Below are positions 1 to 7,589 of a stretch of 54,958 bases of DNA, piece after piece. Numbering within the stretch: the first letter of the stretch is position 1; each line of letters begins with the position of its first letter. Made by a program: the position numbers and the translations under genes. This stretch comes from Candidatus Magasanikiibacteriota bacterium (GTDB taxonomy: Bacteria > Patescibacteriota > Patescibacteriia > Magasanikbacterales > GWA2-37-8): contig JAHFHX010000006.1 in the NCBI GenBank assembly GCA_023246655.1, positions 1 to 54,958 of the forward strand. The letters are read 5' to 3'. Under the pieces are notes generated by a model, which had not been told where the DNA came from, searched no databases, and saw only the letters and a list, made by a program, of their open reading frames with translations.

Positions 1-828
1 TTTAACACCGCGGTATTCATTTAAAAAACTCTCCACGGTATCCGGATTCAAACCGCCGCGAAAAACCAAACTGCCCACACCAATAATTGGGTACAGTGGA
101 ACCTGTTTGGCTCTCGAAAATTGTGTCATTTCAGAAAGAGCAACTTTATTAGCCAGCACTGTTGCTACTAACCCTGAAACCATGGCGGGGTCACTGCGTG
201 CTAGAAAAGGTCGTAAATACTTGGGTTTTCGCCCAAATTCTTTAACATGCTGTTGGCAATACTCATTGAGGAGCCCCTCAATTGCCATTTGACCTTCCAC
301 ACTCTCAATGAGTGGGATCACTTCAAGATAATCTGTATTCGGGCGCTTGGTATGATTAAAAATTTCAAATTTAAAGCGAGCCAATTTGCGAAAAGAAGTT
401 TGAATGTATGTTAATTGTTCGGCTCGCTCGGTCATTGGTAAAATAATTTCAAAGAGCGGATTATTTTTTAATTTGATATCGCGCGCAAAATCTTCGCCCG
501 TCAGAATCACCATCAGCGAACGCAATAAACTATACCCTTTCTCATGCCAAATATTAGGAACACGGAAGGTGAGAAAACGATCTTTACCGAATTTGGCTTG
601 CCGACAAAAATTATAATAGGTAGTAAAGAGTTTGTCAGTCACGGCTTCATCGGCATGTTTGCCTTCCCAATCCCACATAAATTCCGTGACTCCTAAATCT
701 TGGAAAGCCGAAACACACTCAGGTAGTTCTTCGTGAACGCTTACAAACCCATCACCATCTGTTTCCCAATAAGGGGCACTAGCGTTATCGGGGTGTTGGG
801 TAGCCATGGTGGCAGGAATTTTTCGCAT
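1..828 (-). CDS. ppcA: Archaeal-type phosphoenolpyruvate carboxylase; runs off the window start, so its C-terminal part is missing
   Basis: Not in the ORF track. Manual translation from ATG at 828 gives MRKIPATMATQHPDNASAPYW...EFMWDWEGKHADEAV, and the last in-window codons read SFLNEYRGVK in the same frame. MxTQHPDN and MWDWEGK are PpcA signatures. Confidence 0.9.
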   Translation of the reverse strand, partial: MRKIPATMATQHPDNASAPYWETDGDGFVSVHEELPECVSAFQDLGVTEFMWDWEGKHADEAVTDKLFTTYYNFCRQAKFGKDRFLTFRVPNIWHEKGYSLLRSLMVILTGEDFARDIKLKNNPLFEIILPMTERAEQLTYIQTSFRKLARFKFEIFNHTKRPNTDYLEVIPLIESVEGQMAIEGLLNEYCQQHVKEFGRKPKYLRPFLARSDPAMVSGLVATVLANKVALSEMTQFSRAKQVPLYPIIGVGSLVFRGGLNPDTVESFLNEYRGVK

Positions 829-958
829 ATGCTGTTTACCTAGTATATAACGTGTCCCATTATCTCAGAGAATCGTGCGAACGTCAATTAAAGATAGAGT
901 GATACCCGTACTCATACTATTCAAAAAGGACAACCTTACGAGAAAGAGCGAGGAAAAT

Positions 959-2086
959 TTAATTGCCAGCCAGAATCTGCTTCACTATTTTGTCGCGTTG
1001 GCTTAAGGCATCGTCGAGGGAATACGTTGGGTCAATTATGTTAACCATTCGCTCAGCTAAATCTCTATCTTCGGCAGGGAGGCTCAGATCGCCCGTTAGA
1101 TACGCCGCCACAATTTCCGCAAAATATTCACCGGCTTTGGTTATGTTTTGTTCTTGGATATTACTACTACTAATTGACTCAACATAATTTTTTTTAAAAC
1201 GCTCATCACTTTTAAGCCGCTGCAGAACCTCGCCCAATAATTCTAATCGCTCGGCTGCAGACAGCCGGGGGTTGTGGAACCAATCATTATGGTGGGTTGC
1301 TTCATGAGCAAGGGTATCAATTATTTCCAGAATGGTTTCTTTTTCGGCAGATGACTTAAAAAGAGTTACTTCATGATTTACATAATTAGCTTCAGCTAAA
1401 ATAGACCACCCGTCCCCGGAAAGTTTAAACTCTGACAGATCACTATCTGATTCTTGATCAACGTAAATAATTCGTGCGGTTTCGCCAAACATCCCCTGAG
1501 GGAACGTGCTAATTAAAGCTTCCATTGCCTGTGCTTTAATGGGAAACAGTTCCATCCCCTCCAAACGAGGAGATGGAGCCTGAGCTAAATCCGCCGCTGC
1601 CAAATATTTTCCTTCAAGACTGCGGACACGAGTATGTTTTGTTATTTTTTGAATTGTTTTCCTACCAACTGCTCTCTGTACCTCGGTCGCAATGTCCTTA
1701 TTGCTATTAATGAAAGCTTTGGCATCGGATTGCGGCAGCTGCTGCCCGAACGTAAAACCGATAACTGCCGCCGAAAAAAATTTCAACAAATCTTTTGATC
1801 GAGAGGAAGACAGAACCATATCCATCTTGGTGGTGAAGCGATTGAACCATTTTTGTACCCGGCGCTGGTAACCAATAAATCCTTGGTACAACTCTTTCTT
1901 CGCTTGTCTAACCTCCTGCCGAGAATATGGTTGGTTAGGATCATGCAAAAGAAGCTCCAACCCCTGCCAGGCCTCTCGCAGCACTGGATCGTCTAATCGT
2001 AAATTGCCAAGCGTATATTCTAAATCTGGTTTTTTATCTTCTGTAGAATCTTCAATAGAAGAGAATCGAGAATTTTCAGAGGACAT
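959..2086 (-). CDS. Hypothetical protein with HExxH zinc-metalloprotease-like motif
   Basis: 375-aa ORF. TLAHEATHH is preceded by a beta-strand-like segment (HEVTLF) and followed by a downstream E in GEYFAE, as in zincins. Acidic, low-complexity N-terminus. Confidence 0.6.
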   Translation of the reverse strand: MSSENSRFSSIEDSTEDKKPDLEYTLGNLRLDDPVLREAWQGLELLLHDPNQPYSRQEVRQAKKELYQGFIGYQRRVQKWFNRFTTKMDMVLSSSRSKDLLKFFSAAVIGFTFGQQLPQSDAKAFINSNKDIATEVQRAVGRKTIQKITKHTRVRSLEGKYLAAADLAQAPSPRLEGMELFPIKAQAMEALISTFPQGMFGETARIIYVDQESDSDLSEFKLSGDGWSILAEANYVNHEVTLFKSSAEKETILEIIDTLAHEATHHNDWFHNPRLSAAERLELLGEVLQRLKSDERFKKNYVESISSSNIQEQNITKAGEYFAEIVAAYLTGDLSLPAEDRDLAERMVNIIDPTYSLDDALSQRDKIVKQILAGN

Positions 2087-2103
2087 AGGTAGTGGCTATG
2101 ACG

Positions 2104-2625
2104 TTATGTTCCAATTGTCTTTTTTAGCAATAATTTTTTTATCTCTGCTACCTGGTGCAACAGCTCATCACGATCTTTTTTAATATGTACTGCCTCATCT
2201 TCCATTTCAACTAATAGGCTCGACAATTGAGAGCTCACTTGTTCATCGCAACTGAGAATCTGTGCCAGCAGCTTGCGGCGCTGAGCCACAGTACCCACTG
2301 CCTCCTGGAGAAACAATAATAATTTTTTGTGATAATCGTGAGCGCGTGCCGCCAAGAAACCATTTCTTTTTAACTCTTCATAAATGGCGGTGGTGTATGT
2401 CGCATCACTCGGCAATACCGTTTGTAATATAATCAATCGTTGGCCGTGGGGCCTCATAATTTCTTTTACTGTACGAGGATAGTGTTTAGTTAAAAATGTT
2501 CGAAATTTTTTTAAACTGTGCTGCACTGAACCATCTATTATTTCATACTCTATGCCCCGCCCTTGCACCTCTATAAAAGCAGTTAGAGTTACATTACGAT
2601 TAAAAATGGCGATAATTTCAGACAT
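2104..2625 (-). CDS. Hypothetical protein with C-terminal coiled coil
   Basis: 173-aa ORF, co-oriented and 17 nt from the next gene. Heptad-like C-terminus. No family recognised. Confidence 0.6.
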   Translation of the reverse strand: MSEIIAIFNRNVTLTAFIEVQGRGIEYEIIDGSVQHSLKKFRTFLTKHYPRTVKEIMRPHGQRLIILQTVLPSDATYTTAIYEELKRNGFLAARAHDYHKKLLLFLQEAVGTVAQRRKLLAQILSCDEQVSSQLSSLLVEMEDEAVHIKKDRDELLHQVAEIKKLLLKKTIGT

Positions 2626-2809
2626 ACGTATTTAAACGGATCAAACTATTTAAGTAAATCATACTTCTGTTGAATTGTCTATGTTTTAAAACCAATAATC
2701 TTGTACGAGCTGGATAATTTTAACTCTGATTTTTTATATCTTAGACCAATTATCAAACTTCGGAGCGCCTAAAATTTAATGGCACCGCTCACCTGTAGCA
2801 TCACGAGTA

Positions 2810-2818
2810 TGATATAAT
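2810..2818 (+). promoter_or_regulatory. Extended -10 promoter element (TGnTATAAT) upstream of the desaturase
   Basis: TGATATAAT at 2810-2818. SD AAGGAG at 2881-2886 lies 5 nt before ATG 2892. Confidence 0.5.
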
Positions 2819-2891
2819 GTATTTATAGTGCTATTGGCGAGCGGGAATTGTTCCGTTTGCCCAACCCGAACCACTCACCAAAGGAGCGGTG

Positions 2892-3662
2892 ATGAAAGCG
2901 TTGTATGATAAATTCGGGTGGCCGGCTCTGATTGCGGCCACCTTCGCCGTGGGATTGGCTGTGTTGTTGGTGGCGACGATCCGCTTCGTTGCCATTTTTG
3001 TCTGGCGGCGCAAGCGGTACGTGCCGGACTACAAGGCGGACCGGGCGGAGTTGGGGCGGTCAGTGTTCTGGTCGCTCGTCTCCATGGCGGGCAACGCCGT
3101 CCTCATGTTCCCCATCCAACTGGGGATCGTGAAAGGGTACAGCCGAATGTATTTCTCGGTGGGGGAATACGGGTGGCTCTACCTGCCATTCAGCGCGGTT
3201 GCGCTCCTCGCGGTGAGCGAGACGCTCACCTACTGGGTGCACCGTGTGCTCCACAGCCGTTTCCTCTACGGCTTGCACGCCAAGCACCACGAGTTCAAAA
3301 AAACGACGCCGCTGATGGCGGTGGCGTTCATCCCGCTCGATGCCTTCCTGCAGGGGTTACCCTACCACCTGTGCATCTACGCCTTCCCCATACACGTGTG
3401 GGTGTACCAAGGGTTTTTTGTGTGCATCACCCTGTGGGCGATCTCGATTCACGATCGCACCACCTGGCTGGCGCCCAAAGGGCTCTTGGTGTGGCTGGTG
3501 AACCACACCGGGTGCCACACGGTGCACCACTGGTTCGGCACCGGCAACTTCGGCCAGATCACCTCGATCTGGGATCGGATCTGCGGCACCTACAAACATC
3601 CGCAAGACCTGCCCGCGGAGTTCTTCGCCGCCGTCCCAGGCCGCGCGCCTCCGCCGGCATAA
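2892..3662 (+). CDS. Sterol desaturase / fatty-acid hydroxylase family protein, most similar in motif pattern to lathosterol oxidase (ERG3/SC5D)
   Basis: Three His boxes (YWVHRVLH, HAKHH, HTVHH) plus AFxPLDAFLQGLPYH, FPIHxxVY, WAISIHD and NFGQITSIWDRICGTY. Hydrophobic TM segments. Start placed at ATG 2892 from SD spacing. Confidence 0.85.
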   Translation: MKALYDKFGWPALIAATFAVGLAVLLVATIRFVAIFVWRRKRYVPDYKADRAELGRSVFWSLVSMAGNAVLMFPIQLGIVKGYSRMYFSVGEYGWLYLPFSAVALLAVSETLTYWVHRVLHSRFLYGLHAKHHEFKKTTPLMAVAFIPLDAFLQGLPYHLCIYAFPIHVWVYQGFFVCITLWAISIHDRTTWLAPKGLLVWLVNHTGCHTVHHWFGTGNFGQITSIWDRICGTYKHPQDLPAEFFAAVPGRAPPPA

Positions 3663-3704
3663 AACTCGGCAAGCAACTCCCTCCCGCCCAATAAGGAAGA
3701 TAAC

Positions 3705-3761
3705 TGAGACCTCCCCGTACCTATGGATATAAAAATTGTATACATCGGTACGGAGGTCTCA
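3705..3761. repeat. Inverted repeat / hairpin downstream of the desaturase
   Basis: TGAGACCTCC(CC)GTACC ... GGTACGGAGGTCTCA. The arms pair apart from a 2-nt bulge. Confidence 0.7.
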
Positions 3762-4069
3762 CCAAAAATTCTATAAATATTCTACAAAAATGTGGAATAT
3801 TTTTATTCATAATAATTTTATTAGGATAAAAACAAAAAACCAGCTGGATTACAGCATGATTTTTTGTCTCGTTTGTGCACAAGGTGAGATGCCCCTTAAC
3901 GCGGTAGCATACGGCCGATGAGTGTTCGGCGCACTTGCGCTGGGCCTGTTAGCTCGGGTGAACGAGACCGTAAAAAGTTCACTTTCAGCGCTGTTCCGAC
4001 CACTGGGCACCCTGCCACGGTCCTTCTTCGGAAAACAATGCCCTGCAATCGGCGGCCCTTCGGGCGCGA

Positions 4070-4528
4070 CTACTCGCTTTTGAGGATGAGGCCGGCGCGG
4101 CCGAGGAAGGCCTCGACTTCACTCGACCTGAAGGGCGCCGTCTGGCGCGAGCGCGCGCACCCGGCCGGAAGACCGGTACGTGGCGGGCCGAAGTGGCGGA
4201 TGAGTTCCTTGATCGCGGCCGCGACAGCCGTGAAGTTCGTGAGGTCAGCGCCCTCGCAGAAGTCAGCGCCCTGGAACCAGCCGATCACCCCCTCACCACC
4301 CTCGAGGAGGGTGCCCCGAACCGGCTGCCGTCCGAAACGCAGGTGCCAGATTGTCTGACCCTTCTCCCCGGTACCCTTCCAGACGAGGAGCGATTGCCAG
4401 TCGCTCCAGATGATGTAGCCACCCACCTTCGGCTCGACCTTGAGCTCGCCAAGCCCCAGGTTCACGAGGCTCGCGAGCATCTCACGCAGATCCTCCCGAT
4501 CAATGAAGAACAGTCCGTGGTAATTCAT
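4070..4528 (-). CDS. GC-rich hypothetical protein
   Basis: 152-aa ORF with SD-like AGGAGAAGG just upstream of the ATG and high GC3 codon use. Confidence 0.6.
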   Translation of the reverse strand: MNYHGLFFIDREDLREMLASLVNLGLGELKVEPKVGGYIIWSDWQSLLVWKGTGEKGQTIWHLRFGRQPVRGTLLEGGEGVIGWFQGADFCEGADLTNFTAVAAAIKELIRHFGPPRTGLPAGCARSRQTAPFRSSEVEAFLGRAGLILKSE

Positions 4529-4568
4529 GTACCTTCTCCTGGTTGGAGCTACTCACCTTGAGCAGCTG

Positions 4569-4577
4569 TTATCCACA
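4569..4577 (+). promoter_or_regulatory. Isolated DnaA box
   Basis: Perfect TTATCCACA in an intergenic region. A single copy could be chance. Confidence 0.35.
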
Positions 4578-4628
4578 CTTTACGTGGTATATAGTTTGAA
4601 GTAAAATTTTTAATCATACTATACAATT

Positions 4629-4657
4629 TTGACACGAATTGTAATGTTTGTTACAAT
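4629..4657 (+). promoter_or_regulatory. Sigma70-type promoter
   Basis: TTGACA(4629-4634)-17 nt-TACAAT(4652-4657) with extended TG, 9 nt before ATG 4667. Confidence 0.7.
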
Positions 4658-4666
4658 TGACCTACT

Positions 4667-5314
4667 ATGATAAATATCTCTACCGTTGTTGAAAAAATCC
4701 TCTTTAATTCCCCCGTTCCCTTTATTGCTCTTCAAAAGGACTATTTGAATTTGTCGGCGTACGCCAAATCAATTGCCAAAGAAGTTGAACAGAAAACCAA
4801 AAAACCGGTACGGGTAGGAAGTATTGTGGTGGCGCTTTCACGCCTCCAAGCTACGCTTACCAAAGCCAAACCATTATTGCCTACTATTCGTATTGAAGAA
4901 TTGTCGGTTAAGTCCAACTTAGTAGAAATAACATTTGAAAAAACTATGGCAAACTTGCGGGCGTTTCCTGCCATCTATCACGATCGTGCTTTTGCCTCAA
5001 CTGATTTTTTTACGGTTACGCAGGGTATTCAAGAAATTACGATTATTACCAATGAAAAAATGAAGCCTCTGGTTTTAAAAAAATGTGCTCCCGCGCGAGC
5101 CAAATATGTTATGGATAATTTGGCGAGTTTGACGATCCACTTAGGCGAACACTATTTAGAAACACCAAATGTTATTTACGCGCTCGTGCAGGAATTTGGT
5201 TTGCGACGCATTAACATTGTGGAAATTATTTCTACCTTAACTGAGATGAGTTTTATTCTTAAACAGGCGGATCTCCAGGAATCTTTTTTGTTGATGAGTG
5301 AGCGTTTGAGGTAA
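4667..5314 (+). CDS. ACT-like (aspartokinase regulatory-type) domain protein with N-terminal helical domain
   Basis: 215 aa. C-terminal TPNVIYALVQEFGLRRINIVEIISTLTEMSFIL resembles ACT-like repeats. No kinase catalytic domain. Confidence 0.55.
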   Translation: MINISTVVEKILFNSPVPFIALQKDYLNLSAYAKSIAKEVEQKTKKPVRVGSIVVALSRLQATLTKAKPLLPTIRIEELSVKSNLVEITFEKTMANLRAFPAIYHDRAFASTDFFTVTQGIQEITIITNEKMKPLVLKKCAPARAKYVMDNLASLTIHLGEHYLETPNVIYALVQEFGLRRINIVEIISTLTEMSFILKQADLQESFLLMSERLR

Positions 5315-5468
5315 AAAACAAAAACGGCTTATTTAAGGCCATCTCTATTCTACAAATAACGCTTCAGTTGTTTGTATAAATATTTCCTGCCTAACCCGCC
5401 TTTAAAAAATTTCTCTCTACCAATTGCATCTTGTTTATTGGCGTAACAGATGCCGAGAGCATTTTTCG

Positions 5469-5543
5469 TGGAGCGGGTAAGGGGAGTCGAACCCCTGTCA
5501 CCAGTTTGGAAAACTGGGATAATAGCCGTTATATGATACCCGC
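5469..5543 (-). tRNA. tRNA-Gly(TCC)
   Basis: GCGGGTA...anticodon loop with TCC...GGTTCGACTCC...TACCCGCTCCA. Cloverleaf with encoded CCA. Confidence 0.95.
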
Positions 5544-5614
5544 AGTGAGTGAAAACGAAGTTAACTTCGGTTTTCCGAGCGAGGAATATTATATACTAGG
5601 TATATGATACCCGC
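5530..5614. repeat. 14-bp direct repeat duplicating the tRNA-Gly 5' end
   Basis: TATATGATACCCGC at 5530-5543 and 5601-5614. The spacer holds the palindrome GAAGTTAACTTC. Confidence 0.75.
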
Positions 5615-5640
5615 GGTGAAAGTCTAAAGTCTATAAAGTT

Positions 5641-5670
5641 CCCGCCACAGGCGGGTCCGCCTTTGGCGGA
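5641..5670. repeat. Tandem short GC-rich palindromes set in AAAGTC-type tandem repeats
   Basis: CCCGCC-ACA-GGCGGG immediately followed by TCCGCC-TTT-GGCGGA, flanked on both sides by (A/T)AAAGT(C/T) repeats. Confidence 0.75.
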
Positions 5671-5726
5671 GAAAGTCCATAAAGTTTTTAAAGTCCGAAT
5701 TGTTGTATTGCTCGTTATTTTAACGA

Positions 5727-6287
5727 TCACGCCCGAGCTGAATACTCGCCGGTTTCTGTATTTACCAAAACTTCTTCACCTTCTTTAATAAAAATCGGGG
5801 CTTGAATTTTAAGACCATTATCTAAAGCAATTTCTTTTGTCACATTGCCAGCGGCGGAATCTCCGCGTACTGCTGGGGGGGCTTCTACTACTTTGTACTG
5901 CACTTTCTTTGGCAACTGAATACTCACTGGCCTCCCTTCATAAAGACCGACAACAACATCTAAACCTTCTTTAAGATACTTGGCATCGTCACCAATTGAA
6001 TCCGCATCCATCTCAATTTGCTCATAGTTATTCATATTCATAAAAGCGTATCGCCCCTCAGTTTGATACAGATACTGCATGGTTTGAAATTGCACTTCAA
6101 CAATCTCTACTGACTCACCACTTTTATACGTAATTTCAATAACTTTTCCGGAAGCTAAATCCTTCATGCGGGTACGGGTAAACGCCGCTCCTTTACCAGG
6201 GTTAACGTGTTGAAACTCGACAACGACGTATAGGTTATTATTGTGCTTAATAACGGCTCCTTTGCGAATATCAGAAGTTGTAGACAT
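5727..6287 (-). CDS. efp: Translation elongation factor P
   Basis: HVNPGKGAAFTR loop (Lys at the modified position), YAFMNMNNYEQ, NGLKIQAPIFIKEGEEVLVNTETGEYSARA. Confidence 0.97.
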   Translation of the reverse strand: MSTTSDIRKGAVIKHNNNLYVVVEFQHVNPGKGAAFTRTRMKDLASGKVIEITYKSGESVEIVEVQFQTMQYLYQTEGRYAFMNMNNYEQIEMDADSIGDDAKYLKEGLDVVVGLYEGRPVSIQLPKKVQYKVVEAPPAVRGDSAAGNVTKEIALDNGLKIQAPIFIKEGEEVLVNTETGEYSARA

Positions 6288-6337
6288 AAACTAAATTAGC
6301 AATTATCAATGAGCAATTAACAACGCGGCTTACATTG

Positions 6338-7501
6338 TTAGTTGTTTATTGTTAATTGATCATTTACGCTTTGAAATATCACCTCATTAATATCTCTAGC
6401 GCCAGTAAATAATAGTATCATACGATCCACCCCTAAGGCAATACCTGCAGCCTTATCTGTCATTCCTAGCGCAGCCGAGGGATCTCGCGACGTCTTGGCC
6501 AAGCGAGACTTCTCCGCTACGCCGCGCCCTGTACCATACGGTACTGGGCTCCGCTCCGGTTGAAATGACAAATTGGCAGGGATGCCCGATTTAAGAGCGG
6601 CAATAAAGTCCTCGTCTACGGGCCAGGTCTCTTTGCCAAGTTGGTGACGCACAGCACGATCAACTTCCAAACGACGTTTTTGTTCATCAGAATCAGTCAA
6701 CTCACCAAATCCATTGCATATCTCAAGCCCACCAATATAACATTCCACGCGTTCAGCATAGCGTGGATCGTGATGGCAGAGGCGTGACAACGAGGCCATC
6801 TGAGCGGGATAATCATATAAAAACATTGGACGTTCGATGCCAAGGTGAGATTCGATCTCATTCAAAAAAATCTTAAAAAATATATCCTCATAGCTATCTT
6901 TATTACCTACCGAATATCCTCGACCTCGGGCTGTGTTACTCAATTGTTCAATTGTTAGATTGTTGTCTAAATCAACCCCAACATATTTTTCCCACACTTC
7001 TTTCATACTCATCCGCTCCCAGGTTTGGTTTACCTTTATCTCTTTATCTTTATACCTCAAGGTCTCAATTAACAATTCCTTTCCCACAAATTTAAATAAT
7101 TCTTCCATATCATCCATAAAATTCTGATACGTGCCCGGCGCACGATACCACTCAATCATGGTAAACTCAGGGTTATGTGTGCCACCAAAATCTTCATGAT
7201 TACGAAAACATTTACCGATCTCAAATACTTTGTTCCAACCAGCCGCCAATAGTTTCTTAAGGGCAAACTCCGGAGAAGTACGCAGGTAAAATCTATATTC
7301 ATCGCCGGTGGCGTGCGTTACCATTACCGGAAAAAAATGTAAATATGGCTCTTGGCTGGCAAAGCGAAGCGCGAGTGGTGTTTCAGCCTCCACAAATCCT
7401 TGTGACCAAAAAAATTCGCGGATCAGACGTACAATTTTAATTCTTTGATCAAAAATCTTTTTGAGGCGAGGGTTATGTTTGAGGTCGGACCAGGTGGACA
7501 T
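6338..7501 (-). CDS. epmA: EF-P lysine aminoacylase (GenX/PoxA) with a ~40-aa insertion
   Basis: LRTSPEFALKKLLAAG, FRNHE...HNPEFTMIEWY, EICNGFGEL, GIALGVDRM. No anticodon-binding domain; directly upstream of efp. Confidence 0.93.
   Translation of the reverse strand: MSTWSDLKHNPRLKKIFDQRIKIVRLIREFFWSQGFVEAETPLALRFASQEPYLHFFPVMVTHATGDEYRFYLRTSPEFALKKLLAAGWNKVFEIGKCFRNHEDFGGTHNPEFTMIEWYRAPGTYQNFMDDMEELFKFVGKELLIETLRYKDKEIKVNQTWERMSMKEVWEKYVGVDLDNNLTIEQLSNTARGRGYSVGNKDSYEDIFFKIFLNEIESHLGIERPMFLYDYPAQMASLSRLCHHDPRYAERVECYIGGLEICNGFGELTDSDEQKRRLEVDRAVRHQLGKETWPVDEDFIAALKSGIPANLSFQPERSPVPYGTGRGVAEKSRLAKTSRDPSAALGMTDKAAGIALGVDRMILLFTGARDINEVIFQSVNDQLTINN
6458..6570. mobile_element. Palindromic REP/MITE-like element inserted in frame in epmA
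   Basis: Ends TGTCATTCC...GAAATGACA are inverted repeats, with an internal hairpin GTACC-ATAC-GGTAC. Same end motif as the intergenic elements at 24759, 40850 and 48709. Confidence 0.8.
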
Positions 7502-7509
7502 ACTCGTGA

Positions 7510-7576
7510 AACGTAAAACGCGTAACGCATAACGTAAACCATTTGGTTCAACGCCCTACGTTACGCGTTTTACGTT
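7510..7576. repeat. 18-bp perfect inverted repeat built from heptamer units; probable terminator of rpsF-ssb-rpsR
   Basis: AACGTAAAACGCGTAACG (7510-7527) and CGTTACGCGTTTTACGTT (7559-7576). Confidence 0.8.
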
Positions 7577-7589
7577 ATATATTTAAAGT

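What the first reader, a model, noticed from the sequence alone, without database searches (positions are those of the whole stretch)
2892..3662. Eukaryote-style sterol C5-desaturase (ERG3/SC5D-like) in a CPR genome
Seen: three His boxes, plus inter-box motifs (AFxPLDAFLQGLPYH, FPIH...Y, WAISIHD, NFGQ...WDRICGTY) that match my recollection of ERG3/SC5D rather than generic bacterial FA hydroxylases. The gene is much more GC-rich than its neighbours and has its own extended -10 and SD. Established: these are O2-dependent di-iron membrane enzymes, and CPR bacteria generally lack lipid biosynthesis. Inference: a horizontally acquired enzyme that remodels scavenged host sterols or lipids, hinting at a eukaryotic or sterol-producing (e.g. 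myxobacterial) host.
Basis: partly seen in the sequence, partly recalled or inferred. Interest (0 to 1): 0.8.

Follow-up and report, generated by a model that had tools for sequence, protein, structure and literature searches.

The report
Myxobacterial-type sterol C5-desaturase gene in CPR
A tiny, lipid-synthesis-free candidate-phyla-radiation bacterium carries one intact gene of the ERG3/SC5D sterol C5-desaturase family, imported from a myxobacterium-like sterol producer; it may remodel sterols taken from a host and so hints at who that host is.

Summary
ORF 2892-3662 (+) encodes a 256-aa FA_hydroxylase-fold protein with all three His boxes. GC3 is 0.84 against 0.35-0.41 in neighbouring genes. 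An extended -10 box and an AGGAG ribosome-binding site lie upstream.

It belongs to the ERG3/SC5D group, not to generic hydroxylases. Profiles built without it score 328 bits (bacterial ERG3-like), 240 bits (eukaryotic ERG3/SC5D) and at most 128 bits (other subfamilies).

It is not eukaryote-derived. It nests (100/93) in a bacterial clade beside a Polyangia MAG and the cholesterol producer Minicystis rosea. An AU test rejects a eukaryotic grouping (p = 0.003). Most relatives in that clade sit beside ERG24/ERG2-type genes or inside full sterol clusters.

Two independent assemblies reproduce the left junction at 100% identity and one spans the whole island, so a chimera is unlikely. None of 60 relatives or 400 sampled Patescibacteria has an ERG3-clade gene.

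The genome has no other sterol gene, no ketoacyl synthase, and no cytochrome b5, 2Fe-2S ferredoxin, flavodoxin or rubredoxin. Only an FNR-like flavoprotein could donate electrons. The gene is one of about 40 GC-rich foreign-looking cassettes.

Acquisition by transfer is well supported. Sterol remodelling is plausible (about 45%) but untested.

The parts
2810..2818 (+). Extended -10 promoter element TGaTATAAT, in AT-rich host-like DNA about 70 nt upstream of the start codon
   Evidence: Read directly. It is not listed by the consensus scan because no -35 hexamer matches. Function is not shown.
2835..3705 (.). GC-rich block 1: about 55 nt of leader, the desaturase gene and about 40 nt of trailer. 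GC about 0.60 against 0.35-0.44 on either side
   Evidence: Composition profile; GC3 0.84; sequence.
2882..2886 (+). Shine-Dalgarno AGGAG, 5 nt before the ATG at 2892
   Evidence: Sequence.
2892..3662 (+). ERG3/SC5D-family membrane di-iron enzyme: a sterol C5-desaturase homologue, 256 aa plus stop
   Evidence: PF04116 at E = 9.5e-24. Leave-one-out HMMs score 327.8 bits (bacterial ERG3-like) and 240.4 bits (eukaryotic ERG3/SC5D) against 128 bits or less for other subfamilies. IQ-TREE placement. AF2 pLDDT 95.3.
3240..3254 (+). His box 1, HRVLH (H117, H121)
   Evidence: invariant columns.
3276..3290 (+). His box 2, HAKHH (H129, H132, H133)
   Evidence: invariant columns.
3516..3530 (+). His box 3, HTVHH (H209, H212, H213)
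   Evidence: invariant columns.
3706..3760 (.). Unique imperfect hairpin just after the gene: arms ctgagacctccccgtacc and ggtacggaggtctcac around an AT-rich loop. It may be a terminator or the cassette edge
   Evidence: I7 is its inner part. No other copy in the genome. Rfam gives only chance-level matches.
3858..3893 (.). 36-nt boundary motif GATTTTTTGTCTCGTTTGTGCACAAGGTGAGATGCC, shared with two other GC-rich cassettes of this genome. It marks the 3' edge of the second cassette
   Evidence: 100% identical to C24:22321-22356; a split copy lies at C24:34984-35054.
4070..4528 (-). Orphan 152-aa ORF in GC-rich block 2 (GC 0.65, GC3 0.82). It is convergent with the desaturase gene and is probably a separate foreign cassette
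   Evidence: Codon-position GC pattern typical of a real high-GC gene. No homologue in 5.8 billion proteins or in 301 Myxococcota genomes. No Pfam, PADLOC or PHROG match. The AF2 model is unusable, pLDDT 40.

Best explanation
The gene encodes an intact membrane di-iron oxidase of the ERG3/SC5D (sterol C5(6)-desaturase, lathosterol oxidase) orthologous group. It belongs to the bacterial branch of that group, which is centred on sterol-producing Myxococcota.

Origin. A roughly 0.87-kb GC-rich single-gene cassette was inserted into an intergenic 'slot' of a 1.13-Mb Patescibacteria genome. Earlier notes call the genome Magasanikbacteria-like. The cassette now sits behind an AT-rich resident promoter (extended -10) and carries its own Shine-Dalgarno sequence. 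The donor was an unsampled bacterium of about 64-66% GC, close to Polyangia such as Minicystis rosea. The transfer looks recent because GC3 has not decayed.

Inferred mechanism. The enzyme sits in the cell membrane. It uses O2 and two electrons to abstract the C5 and C6 hydrogens of a delta-7 sterol (lathosterol or episterol type), giving a delta-5,7 sterol. The cell cannot make sterols or even fatty acids, so the substrate would be sterol scavenged from a sterol-containing host or prey membrane. Tetrahymena and Phytophthora do the same with their lone ERG3 genes. Electrons would not come from cytochrome b5, which is absent. They might come from the genome's native FNR-type flavoprotein.

Shown: the gene, its intact motifs, its family and clade, its foreign composition, its absence from relatives, the reproduced junctions, and the lack of a sterol pathway and of the usual electron donors.

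Inferred: expression, sterol substrate, electron donor and host identity.

My odds: ERG3-family member about 0.9; real transfer from a Myxococcota-like bacterium about 0.8; active sterol desaturation in this cell about 0.45.
For: Family:
- PF04116 at E = 9.5e-24.
- All His boxes and 23 invariant columns are kept.
- The protein departs from the family consensus at only 5 of 55 columns that are at least 80% conserved; other members depart at 0-15.
- AF2 gives pLDDT 95.3 and pTM 0.89.
- A profile search returns mainly proteins named C-5 sterol desaturase, ERG3 or lathosterol oxidase.
- Leave-one-out HMM scores are 328 and 240 bits for the ERG3 groups and 128, 64 and 61 bits for other subfamilies.
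- ERG3-like ORFs score at least 281 bits against the family profile; myxobacterial paralogues score 150 bits or less.

Clade:
- IQ-TREE (LG+C20) puts the protein in a 13-row clade (100/93) with Polyangia MAG L010 and Minicystis rosea L012 as nearest rows (98/74).
- That clade lies inside a 46-row bacterial clade (96/94).
- The combined ERG3 clade, bacterial plus eukaryotic, has 98/91 support.
- The AU test rejects grouping the protein with eukaryotes, p = 0.0026.

Sterol link from relatives:
- P0003 (47% identical) lies in a cluster with 3beta-HSD, Rieske SdmA-like, ERG4/24, CYP51-type P450, a fused squalene epoxidase-oxidosqualene cyclase, and ERG2.
- P0161 lies in a cluster with SE, two 3beta-HSD, P450, EBP, ERG4/24, a DHCR24-like protein and a sterol methyltransferase.
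- ERG4/24 and/or ERG2 lie next to the homologue in four gammaproteobacterial MAGs, in M. rosea and in P0231.
- M. rosea and Enhygromyxa salina make cholesterol (PMC12004948, PMC10202945).

Transfer:
- GC3 is 0.84 against 0.35-0.41 in native genes. This equals the homologues in Polyangia: L010 0.62/0.90 and L012 0.62/0.88 (gene GC/GC3).
- No homologue in 60 relatives.
- No ERG3-clade gene in 400 sampled Patescibacteria.
- Contigs from two other ENA assemblies match window 2001-13662 and 1617-4220 at 100% identity, with different contig ends.

Scavenging context:
- No ketoacyl synthase.
- No OSC, SE, CYP51, ERG4/24, ERG2 or EBP.

Precedents:
- Sterol auxotrophs that keep ERG3 to process dietary sterols (PMC2817430; Tetrahymena DES5A in PMC9485055).
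- Another Patescibacteria family has an FA_hydroxylase fused to an FAD_binding_6 plus NAD_binding_1 reductase. That is the same module as the standalone native protein at C26 of this genome.
Against:
- The genome lacks cytochrome b5, 2Fe-2S ferredoxin, flavodoxin and rubredoxin. The electron supply is therefore unknown. The FNR idea rests on 25% identity to a fused domain in a different subfamily.
- The gene is alone, with no sterol transporter or partner enzyme recognised nearby.
- It is one of about 48 ORFs with high GC3, spread over 64 GC-rich patches in this genome. Many are orphans, so capture may be indiscriminate.
- Its end branch is about twice as long as those of its sisters (0.95 against about 0.4). 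This could mean relaxed selection.
- The nearest known relative is only 51-55% identical, so the donor is not identified.
- Earlier notes on this genome show that some of its GC-rich genes are old residents and not imports (e1-1002942). Composition alone is therefore weak evidence; here the case rests on absence from relatives plus phylogeny.
- FA_hydroxylase enzymes change substrate readily within families (PMC9485055, discussion).
Confidence: 0.55

Rival explanations
1. Unselected cargo. The gene is a genuine, recently captured ERG3-family gene, but it does nothing useful in this cell. It lacks a substrate, an electron donor, enough O2, or expression, and it will decay.
For: The genome holds about 48 high-GC3 ORFs in 64 GC-rich patches, many with no known family. 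The neighbouring cassette encodes an orphan. No cytochrome b5, ferredoxin, flavodoxin or rubredoxin was found. No other sterol gene was found. The end branch is long. Unameliorated GC3 implies too little time for decay to show.
Against: The frame is open. All catalytic His and 50 of 55 conserved columns are intact, which is within the family's normal range. The AF2 model is very confident. The gene has an SD and sits behind a promoter-like element. Three assemblies from different samples carry it unchanged.
Confidence: 0.25
2. An active enzyme with a non-sterol substrate. It would desaturate or hydroxylate another scavenged membrane lipid, such as an acyl chain, a sphingoid base, or a hopanoid- or carotenoid-like isoprenoid.
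For: The FA_hydroxylase superfamily shifts substrates easily (PMC9485055). Other Patescibacteria (family f28) natively carry a different FA_hydroxylase subfamily without sterol genes. A member of that subfamily (P0100) sits in a non-sterol context. This genome has no sterol genes.
Against: The protein is a deep, well-supported member of the ERG3 orthogroup and not of those other subfamilies. Most sub-lineages of its 13-row clade are linked to ERG24, ERG2 or whole sterol clusters.
Confidence: 0.13
3. Assembly or binning artefact. A fragment of a high-GC organism was wrongly joined into a CPR contig.
For: The island lies only 2.9 kb from a contig end. The composition shift is abrupt. Read coverage could not be checked.
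Against: Both sides of the island are AT-rich and carry native genes: PEP carboxylase, EF-P, EpmA, S18, SSB and S6. Two further assemblies from other ENA samples reproduce the sequence at 100% identity, and their contig ends differ. One spans the whole island plus 9 kb of core genes to its right. The other covers the left junction and ends inside block 2. The same architecture recurs at about 60 places in the genome.
Confidence: 0.03
4. Direct transfer from a eukaryote, the first reader's 'eukaryote-style' reading. It would point to a eukaryotic host.
For: A eukaryote-only ERG3/SC5D profile still scores 240 bits. Red-algal and glaucophyte sequences are among the top named hits.
Against: The protein nests in a bacterial clade with 100/93 and 96/94 support. 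The AU test rejects a clade of the window protein plus eukaryotes, p = 0.0026. There are no introns, and the codon composition equals that of the Polyangia homologues.
Confidence: 0.03

Closest known systems
Bacterial ERG3-like 'lathosterol oxidase' homologues of sterol-producing Myxococcota (Minicystis rosea, Enhygromyxa salina, Polyangia MAGs) and of gammaproteobacterial MAGs with an ERG24-ERG2-ERG3 trio
   Same: Same orthologous clade, 43-52% identity, same length class (about 250-270 aa), same His boxes and inter-box motifs, same GC and GC3.
   Different: Those genes sit in genomes, and often in clusters, that encode the rest of sterol synthesis (PMC10202945, PMC12004948). Here the gene is alone in a 1.1-Mb genome without any sterol or fatty-acid synthesis. 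The window protein has a longer branch and a 4-residue insertion after the WAISIHD motif. As far as I could find, none of the bacterial C5-desaturase homologues has been tested biochemically.
Eukaryotic ERG3 / SC5D / STE1 (delta7-sterol C5(6)-desaturase, lathosterol oxidase)
   Same: Sister group within one well-supported clade (98/91). About 30-36% identity over about 85% of the length. HX3H, HX2HH and HX2HH boxes; membrane di-iron chemistry that depends on O2.
   Different: Eukaryotic proteins are longer (about 280-430 aa), with N- and C-terminal extensions. They take electrons from cytochrome b5 and its reductase (PMC9485055), and cytochrome b5 is absent here. The window protein is not nested among them.
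Lone ERG3 genes of sterol auxotrophs: Tetrahymena thermophila DES5A; Phytophthora and ciliate ERG3
   Same: An organism that cannot make sterols keeps or acquires a C5-desaturase to modify sterols taken up from outside (PMC2817430; PMC9485055). This is the functional model proposed here.
   Different: Those are eukaryotes with an ER, cytochrome b5 and companion sterol desaturases or reductases. Here the organism is an ultra-small bacterium, and neither activity nor uptake has been shown.
GC-rich single-gene cassettes at intergenic hotspots of this Magasanikbacteria-like lineage (earlier notes e1-995511, e1-1289824, e1-807002)
   Same: Same build: resident AT-rich promoter, SD-bearing GC-rich ORF and a hairpin or terminator edge. 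The neighbouring cassette carries the 36-nt boundary motif also found twice on contig C24. A relative holds a different GC-rich gene (GNAT) in the same slot, beside the homologue of the 215-aa ORF.
   Different: Most such cassettes encode orphans or proteins of unknown origin. This one has a clear family, a clear donor clade and a specific predicted reaction. No integrase, tRNA target or direct repeats define its ends.

Membership tests
ERG3/SC5D sterol C5(6)-desaturase orthogroup | FA_hydroxylase (PF04116) domain of the short-spaced type | tested here: met
   E = 9.5e-24, 84.7 bits against a cut-off of 31; profile positions 2-132 of 132 matched.
ERG3/SC5D sterol C5(6)-desaturase orthogroup | Three His boxes (HX3H, HX2HH, HX2HH) plus further invariant His and Asp that bind the di-iron centre | tested here: met
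   H117/H121, H129/H132/H133 and H209/H212/H213, plus H159, H187, D150 and D228, are invariant across 34 family members and present here.
ERG3/SC5D sterol C5(6)-desaturase orthogroup | Groups with named ERG3/SC5D proteins and away from other FA_hydroxylase subfamilies | tested here: met
   ERG3 clade 98/91 excludes 12 myxobacterial paralogues and the P0132 group. Leave-one-out HMM scores are 328 and 240 bits against 128, 64 and 61 bits. ERG25 and CH25H references by name were not available, so the outgroups are unnamed paralogues.
ERG3/SC5D sterol C5(6)-desaturase orthogroup | Occurs with the rest of a sterol pathway, or with a known sterol supply | tested here: not met
   tblastn with 20 sterol-cluster proteins finds only generic SDR and methyltransferase hits in the genome. 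The feature is met in its nearest relatives. A sterol supply from a host is not testable here.
ERG3/SC5D sterol C5(6)-desaturase orthogroup | [quoted passage not shown] | tested here: not met
   No PF00173 match in the genome. Fer2, flavodoxin and rubredoxin are also absent. One native FAD_binding_6 plus NAD_binding_1 flavoprotein is present. The donor used by bacterial members of the family is unknown.
ERG3/SC5D sterol C5(6)-desaturase orthogroup | Catalyses delta7-sterol to delta5,7-sterol conversion | not testable with these tools
   Needs yeast erg3 deletion complementation or an in vitro assay.
ERG3/SC5D sterol C5(6)-desaturase orthogroup | Fold: four-helix membrane core with a cytosolic His cluster | tested here: inconclusive
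   The AF2 model is very confident (pLDDT 95.3) with long helices at 10-38, 51-80, 97-120, 148-164 and 169-185. No solved structure matched by sequence or by fold, so no comparison was possible.
Horizontally acquired gene island | Composition unlike the host genome | tested here: met
   GC 0.61 and GC3 0.84 against a genome GC of 0.447 and native GC3 of 0.35-0.41.
Horizontally acquired gene island | Absent from close relatives; phylogeny conflicts with the organism's position | tested here: met
   0 of 60 relatives. 0 of 400 sampled Patescibacteria carry an ERG3-clade gene. The gene nests among Myxococcota.
Horizontally acquired gene island | Mobility signatures: integrase or transposase, tRNA target, flanking direct repeats | tested here: not met
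   No such gene in 1-9000. Only chance-level short repeats. The nearest tRNA (Gly) is at 5469-5543, beyond the next gene.
Horizontally acquired gene island | Junctions real, not an assembly join | tested here: met
   Contigs from two other assemblies are 100% identical across the junctions. Read-level check was not possible.

The most novel reading that the evidence does not exclude
This Magasanikbacteria-like episymbiont lives on a sterol-producing myxobacterium (Polyangia) and takes up its host's sterols along with other lipids. It uses a desaturase gene taken from that host lineage to convert delta-7 sterols into delta-5,7 sterols in its own membrane, powered directly by a native FNR-type flavoprotein in place of cytochrome b5. 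If so, this would be the first sterol metabolism in the candidate phyla radiation, the first gene-based host assignment for this CPR class, and a new electron-donor arrangement for ERG3-type enzymes.
Probability: 0.2. Interest if true: 0.85.

Novelty: new member of a known kind. Interest (0 to 1): 0.6.

Why it matters
Hosts and lipid sources are unknown for almost all CPR lineages. A recently imported, intact, lineage-traceable sterol enzyme gives a concrete hypothesis that can be tested: a host or neighbour among sterol-making Polyangia, with scavenged sterols being remodelled.

It would extend sterol modification to ultra-small bacteria that cannot make any lipid. That matters for reading sterol and sterane biomarkers and for the debate on bacterial versus eukaryotic origins of late sterol steps.

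It also gives a well-annotated example of the single-gene GC-rich cassettes that pepper this genome. That helps to ask where those cassettes come from.

If the gene is inert cargo, it still records physical contact or DNA uptake between a CPR bacterium and a myxobacterium-like donor.

Tried and rejected
Independent assemblies served instead.
- Solved-structure comparison: phmmer and a profile search against PDB sequences found nothing. Foldseek of the confident model against PDB gave only chance matches, best E = 1.7.
- NCBIfam gave only a far sub-threshold OlsE hit, 18 bits against a cut-off of 475. I rejected it.
- The 152-aa neighbour gave no result by any route:
  - no homologue in 5.8 billion proteins or in 301 Myxococcota genomes;
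  - no Pfam, PADLOC or PHROG match;
  - a single-sequence AF2 model with pLDDT 40, which is unusable.
- Empty-site comparison: only two relatives have a homologue of the 215-aa flanking ORF. Wider synteny is not conserved, so no clean empty site could be shown.
- Donor remnants: blastx and blastn of the island flanks against all fetched loci found nothing.
- A link between the nearby HemN-like radical SAM / SRPBCC operon (10098-12943) and the radical SAM gene in the P0231 sterol-like cluster: only 23% generic identity, and the SRPBCC hit is sub-threshold. I rejected this as evidence.
- Rfam on 2500-4750: chance-level hits only.
- Named ERG25, SC4MOL and CH25H references could not be obtained without typing sequences from memory. 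Unnamed paralogues from myxobacterial genomes served as outgroups.
Full report
**1. What is there**

The ORF listing finds an open frame at 2889..3662 on the plus strand. The ATG at 2892 follows AGGAG (2882-2886) by 5 nt, so it is the likely start. It gives the 256-aa protein that public assemblies also call (P0001).

Pfam assigns the protein to FA_hydroxylase PF04116 with E = 9.5e-24, covering the whole model. The three His boxes are present:
- HRVLH, nt 3240-3254
- HAKHH, nt 3276-3290
- HTVHH, nt 3516-3530

These, together with H159, H187, D150 and D228, are invariant columns in alignments of 16 and 34 relatives.

The gene has GC 0.61 and GC3 0.84. The five native neighbouring genes have GC3 0.35-0.41, and the genome as a whole is 0.447 GC. 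An extended -10 (TGaTATAAT, 2810-2818) lies in the AT-rich DNA upstream.

**2. Which family**

The closest database proteins are few, and the best is 51-55% identical. Where they carry a name, it is 'lathosterol oxidase'.

A profile of the first hits retrieves 1,940 proteins. The best 120 listed are mostly fungal and other eukaryotic proteins named 'C-5 sterol desaturase', ERG3 or 'Delta(7)-sterol 5(6)-desaturase'. Representatives that I looked up include crinoid 'lathosterol oxidase-like', Thecamonas and Cantharellus C-5 sterol desaturases, and red-algal and glaucophyte proteins.

For generic paralogues I fetched all PF04116 genes of five bacterial genomes that also hold an ERG3-like gene. 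Minicystis rosea has 15 and Enhygromyxa salina has 11. Against the family profile, ERG3-like ORFs score at least 281 bits and every paralogue scores 150 bits or less.

Profiles built without the window protein score it as follows:

| Profile | Bits |
|---|---|
| Bacterial ERG3-like | 327.8 |
| Eukaryotic ERG3/SC5D only | 240.4 |
| P0132 group | 127.6 |
| Generic paralogues | 63.6 |
| Intermediate paralogues | 61.2 |

At sequence level this is a member of the ERG3/SC5D orthogroup.

**3. Where in the family**

A FastTree of 255 rows and a careful IQ-TREE (LG+C20+F+G4, 94 rows) agree.
- The window protein lies in a 13-row clade (100/93).
- Its nearest rows are a Polyangia MAG and Minicystis rosea (98/74).
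- That clade lies inside a 46-row bacterial clade (96/94), made up mainly of Polyangiales, Nannocystaceae and Sandaracinaceae with a few Pseudomonadota, Bacteroidota and Acidobacteriota MAGs.
- The bacterial clade and the eukaryotic ERG3/SC5D sequences together form a clade with 98/91 support that excludes all paralogues.

Forcing the window protein into one clade with the eukaryotes lowers the log-likelihood by 65, p-AU 0.0026. 'Eukaryote-style' is therefore right as a statement of family and wrong as a statement of source.

The end branch is long, 0.95 against about 0.4 for the sisters. Even so, the protein departs from the family consensus at only 5 of 55 strongly conserved columns, inside the range of 0-15 seen in other members. 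AlphaFold2 gives pLDDT 95.3. The protein does not look degraded.

**4. Why sterols**

No bacterial member has been assayed as far as I could find, so the link is by association.
- P0003 (47% identical) sits in a cluster with 3beta-HSD, a Rieske SdmA-like oxygenase, ERG4/24, a CYP51-type P450, a fused squalene epoxidase-oxidosqualene cyclase, and ERG2.
- P0161 sits in a cluster with SE, two 3beta-HSD, P450, EBP, ERG4/24, a DHCR24-like protein and a sterol methyltransferase.
- A record labelled Bradyrhizobium has ERG4/24-ERG2-ERG3 in a row.
- Four gammaproteobacterial MAGs have ERG4/24 and ERG2 within a few kb, and M. rosea has ERG4/24 directly downstream.
- Overall, 45 of 80 fetched loci have at least one sterol-type neighbour.
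- M. rosea, Sandaracinus and E. salina make cholesterol, with lathosterol as an intermediate (PMC12004948, PMC10202945).

**5. Is it really in this genome, and how did it get there**

The window is a whole 54,958-bp contig of a 1.13-Mb, 96.8%-complete genome. Its relatives are all 0.6-1.2 Mb. Earlier notes call it Magasanikbacteria (CPR); I did not verify the name.

The genome has no ketoacyl synthase, while the same search finds one in 14 of 14 control genomes.

Contigs from two other ENA assemblies match window 2001-13662 and 1617-4220 at 100% identity, with different ends. Both cover the left junction. The first spans the whole island plus EF-P, EpmA, S18, SSB and S6. A chimera is therefore very unlikely, although read depth could not be checked.

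None of 60 relatives has a homologue. In 400 sampled Patescibacteria, five other genomes have FA_hydroxylase genes. All of these fall in other subfamilies.

The gene's GC and GC3 equal those of its Polyangia homologues. That argues for a recent transfer from an unsampled donor of about 64-66% GC within or near that clade.

No integrase, tRNA target or flanking direct repeats were found.

**6. The wider pattern**

The genome has 64 patches with GC of at least 0.57 and about 48 ORFs with GC3 of at least 0.72. Among them are a sigma-54 activator, an SDR, a radical SAM enzyme, DUF5995, a PfkB kinase, a PaaA-like protein, SprT and many orphans. Earlier agents described such cassettes and warned that some are old residents.

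Directly after the desaturase come four features:
- a unique hairpin (3706-3760);
- an AT-rich spacer;
- a 36-nt motif (3858-3893) that is identical to one beside another GC-rich gene on contig C24 and split in a third place;
- a second GC-rich cassette with an orphan 152-aa ORF on the minus strand.

In one relative, the homologue of the 215-aa flanking ORF has a different GC-rich gene (GNAT) in the same divergent position. The site thus looks like a recurrent landing slot. The desaturase is one of many captured genes, and this tempers any argument from selection.

**7. Can it work here**

The genome encodes no OSC, SE, CYP51, ERG4/24, ERG2 or EBP. Any sterol must therefore come from outside.

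The classical donor, cytochrome b5, is absent. So are 2Fe-2S ferredoxin, flavodoxin and rubredoxin.

One native-composition FNR-type flavoprotein (FAD_binding_6 plus NAD_binding_1, 234 aa, contig C26) exists besides PyrK. In another Patescibacteria family, an FA_hydroxylase is fused to exactly this kind of module (L136). That shows such a pairing is used in the phylum, though in a different subfamily. This is an inference only.

A lone ERG3 that processes dietary sterols is known in sterol auxotrophs such as Tetrahymena (DES5A), other ciliates and Phytophthora (PMC2817430, PMC9485055).

**8. Verdict**

I commit to the following. The gene is an intact ERG3/SC5D-family gene of the myxobacterial branch, recently captured as a single-gene cassette by a CPR bacterium. 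It most likely, but unprovenly, desaturates delta-7 sterols scavenged from a sterol-containing partner.

The main rival is that it is inert cargo. The finding is a new member of a known enzyme family in an unexpected host. I found no paper that links CPR or Patescibacteria with sterol desaturases.

Noticed in passing
Whole genome G000 (e.g. C2:27533-28579, C7:36821-37627, C9:10812-12125, C9:23109-23867, C13:80702-81874, C14:3023-4420, C18:14448-14921, C22:8235-9134): The 45%-GC genome has 64 patches with GC of at least 0.57 and about 48 ORFs with GC3 of at least 0.72. They include a sigma-54 enhancer-binding activator, an SDR, a radical SAM enzyme, DUF5995, a PfkB kinase, a PaaA/PaaC-like di-iron protein, SprT and a sigma-70-like protein, plus many orphans. 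The donor taxa were not determined.
   Followed up: partly
window 3858-3893; G000 C24:22321-22356 and C24:34984-35054: The 36-nt motif GATTTTTTGTCTCGTTTGTGCACAAGGTGAGATGCC follows a terminator-like hairpin at the 3' edge of three GC-rich minus-strand cassettes. One copy is split by a 32-nt GC-rich insert. It looks like the 'slot boundary' described in earlier notes.
   Followed up: partly
L130, L131, L132, L135, L136 (Patescibacteria family f28: G399, G531, G548): Another Patescibacteria family carries one to three AT-rich, native-looking FA_hydroxylase genes of a separate subfamily. They group with P0132, P0100 and P0144, which JGI also labels 'lathosterol oxidase'. One copy (L136:752-2245) is fused to an FAD_binding_6 plus NAD_binding_1 reductase. 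The substrate is unknown; P0100 sits in a non-sterol context (Band_7, CN_hydrolase).
   Followed up: partly
L125:5068-5622 (relative G023): Beside the homologue of the window's 215-aa ORF, a related genus holds a different GC-rich gene (a GNAT acetyltransferase, local GC about 0.62) in the same divergent position. This suggests a recurrent insertion slot.
   Followed up: partly
L004:1575-4937 and L005:5537-8899: A 1,120-aa protein fuses squalene epoxidase (SE, FAD_binding_3) to oxidosqualene cyclase (SQHop_cyclase_N/C). It lies inside a compact bacterial sterol cluster from a Logan metagenome assembly.
   Followed up: no
L090 / L091 (record labelled Bradyrhizobium diazoefficiens, GCA_044909415.1): An ERG4/24-ERG2-ERG3 trio lies in a cluster with three P450s, an Orf2-type aromatic prenyltransferase, two radical SAM enzymes and a methyltransferase. 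The cluster looks like natural-product tailoring of a sterol-like scaffold. The taxon label may deserve checking.
   Followed up: no
window 959-2086 (-): A 375-aa ORF with an HEATHH (HExxH-like) motif matches no Pfam, PADLOC or PHROG family. The 173-aa ORF next to it (2104-2625) also matches none.
   Followed up: no
window 10098-12943: Amidohydrolase_2, a weak SRPBCC/Polyketide_cyc2-like 147-aa protein (E = 0.0012, below the cut-off) and a HemN-like radical SAM enzyme lie 6.4 kb downstream of the desaturase gene. An SRPBCC fold could bind a hydrophobic ligand, but no link to the desaturase was found.
   Followed up: partly
window 3706-3760: A unique 17-bp-arm hairpin with a 24-nt AT-rich, partly palindromic loop lies just after the desaturase stop codon. 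There is no other copy in the genome and no Rfam family.
   Followed up: partly
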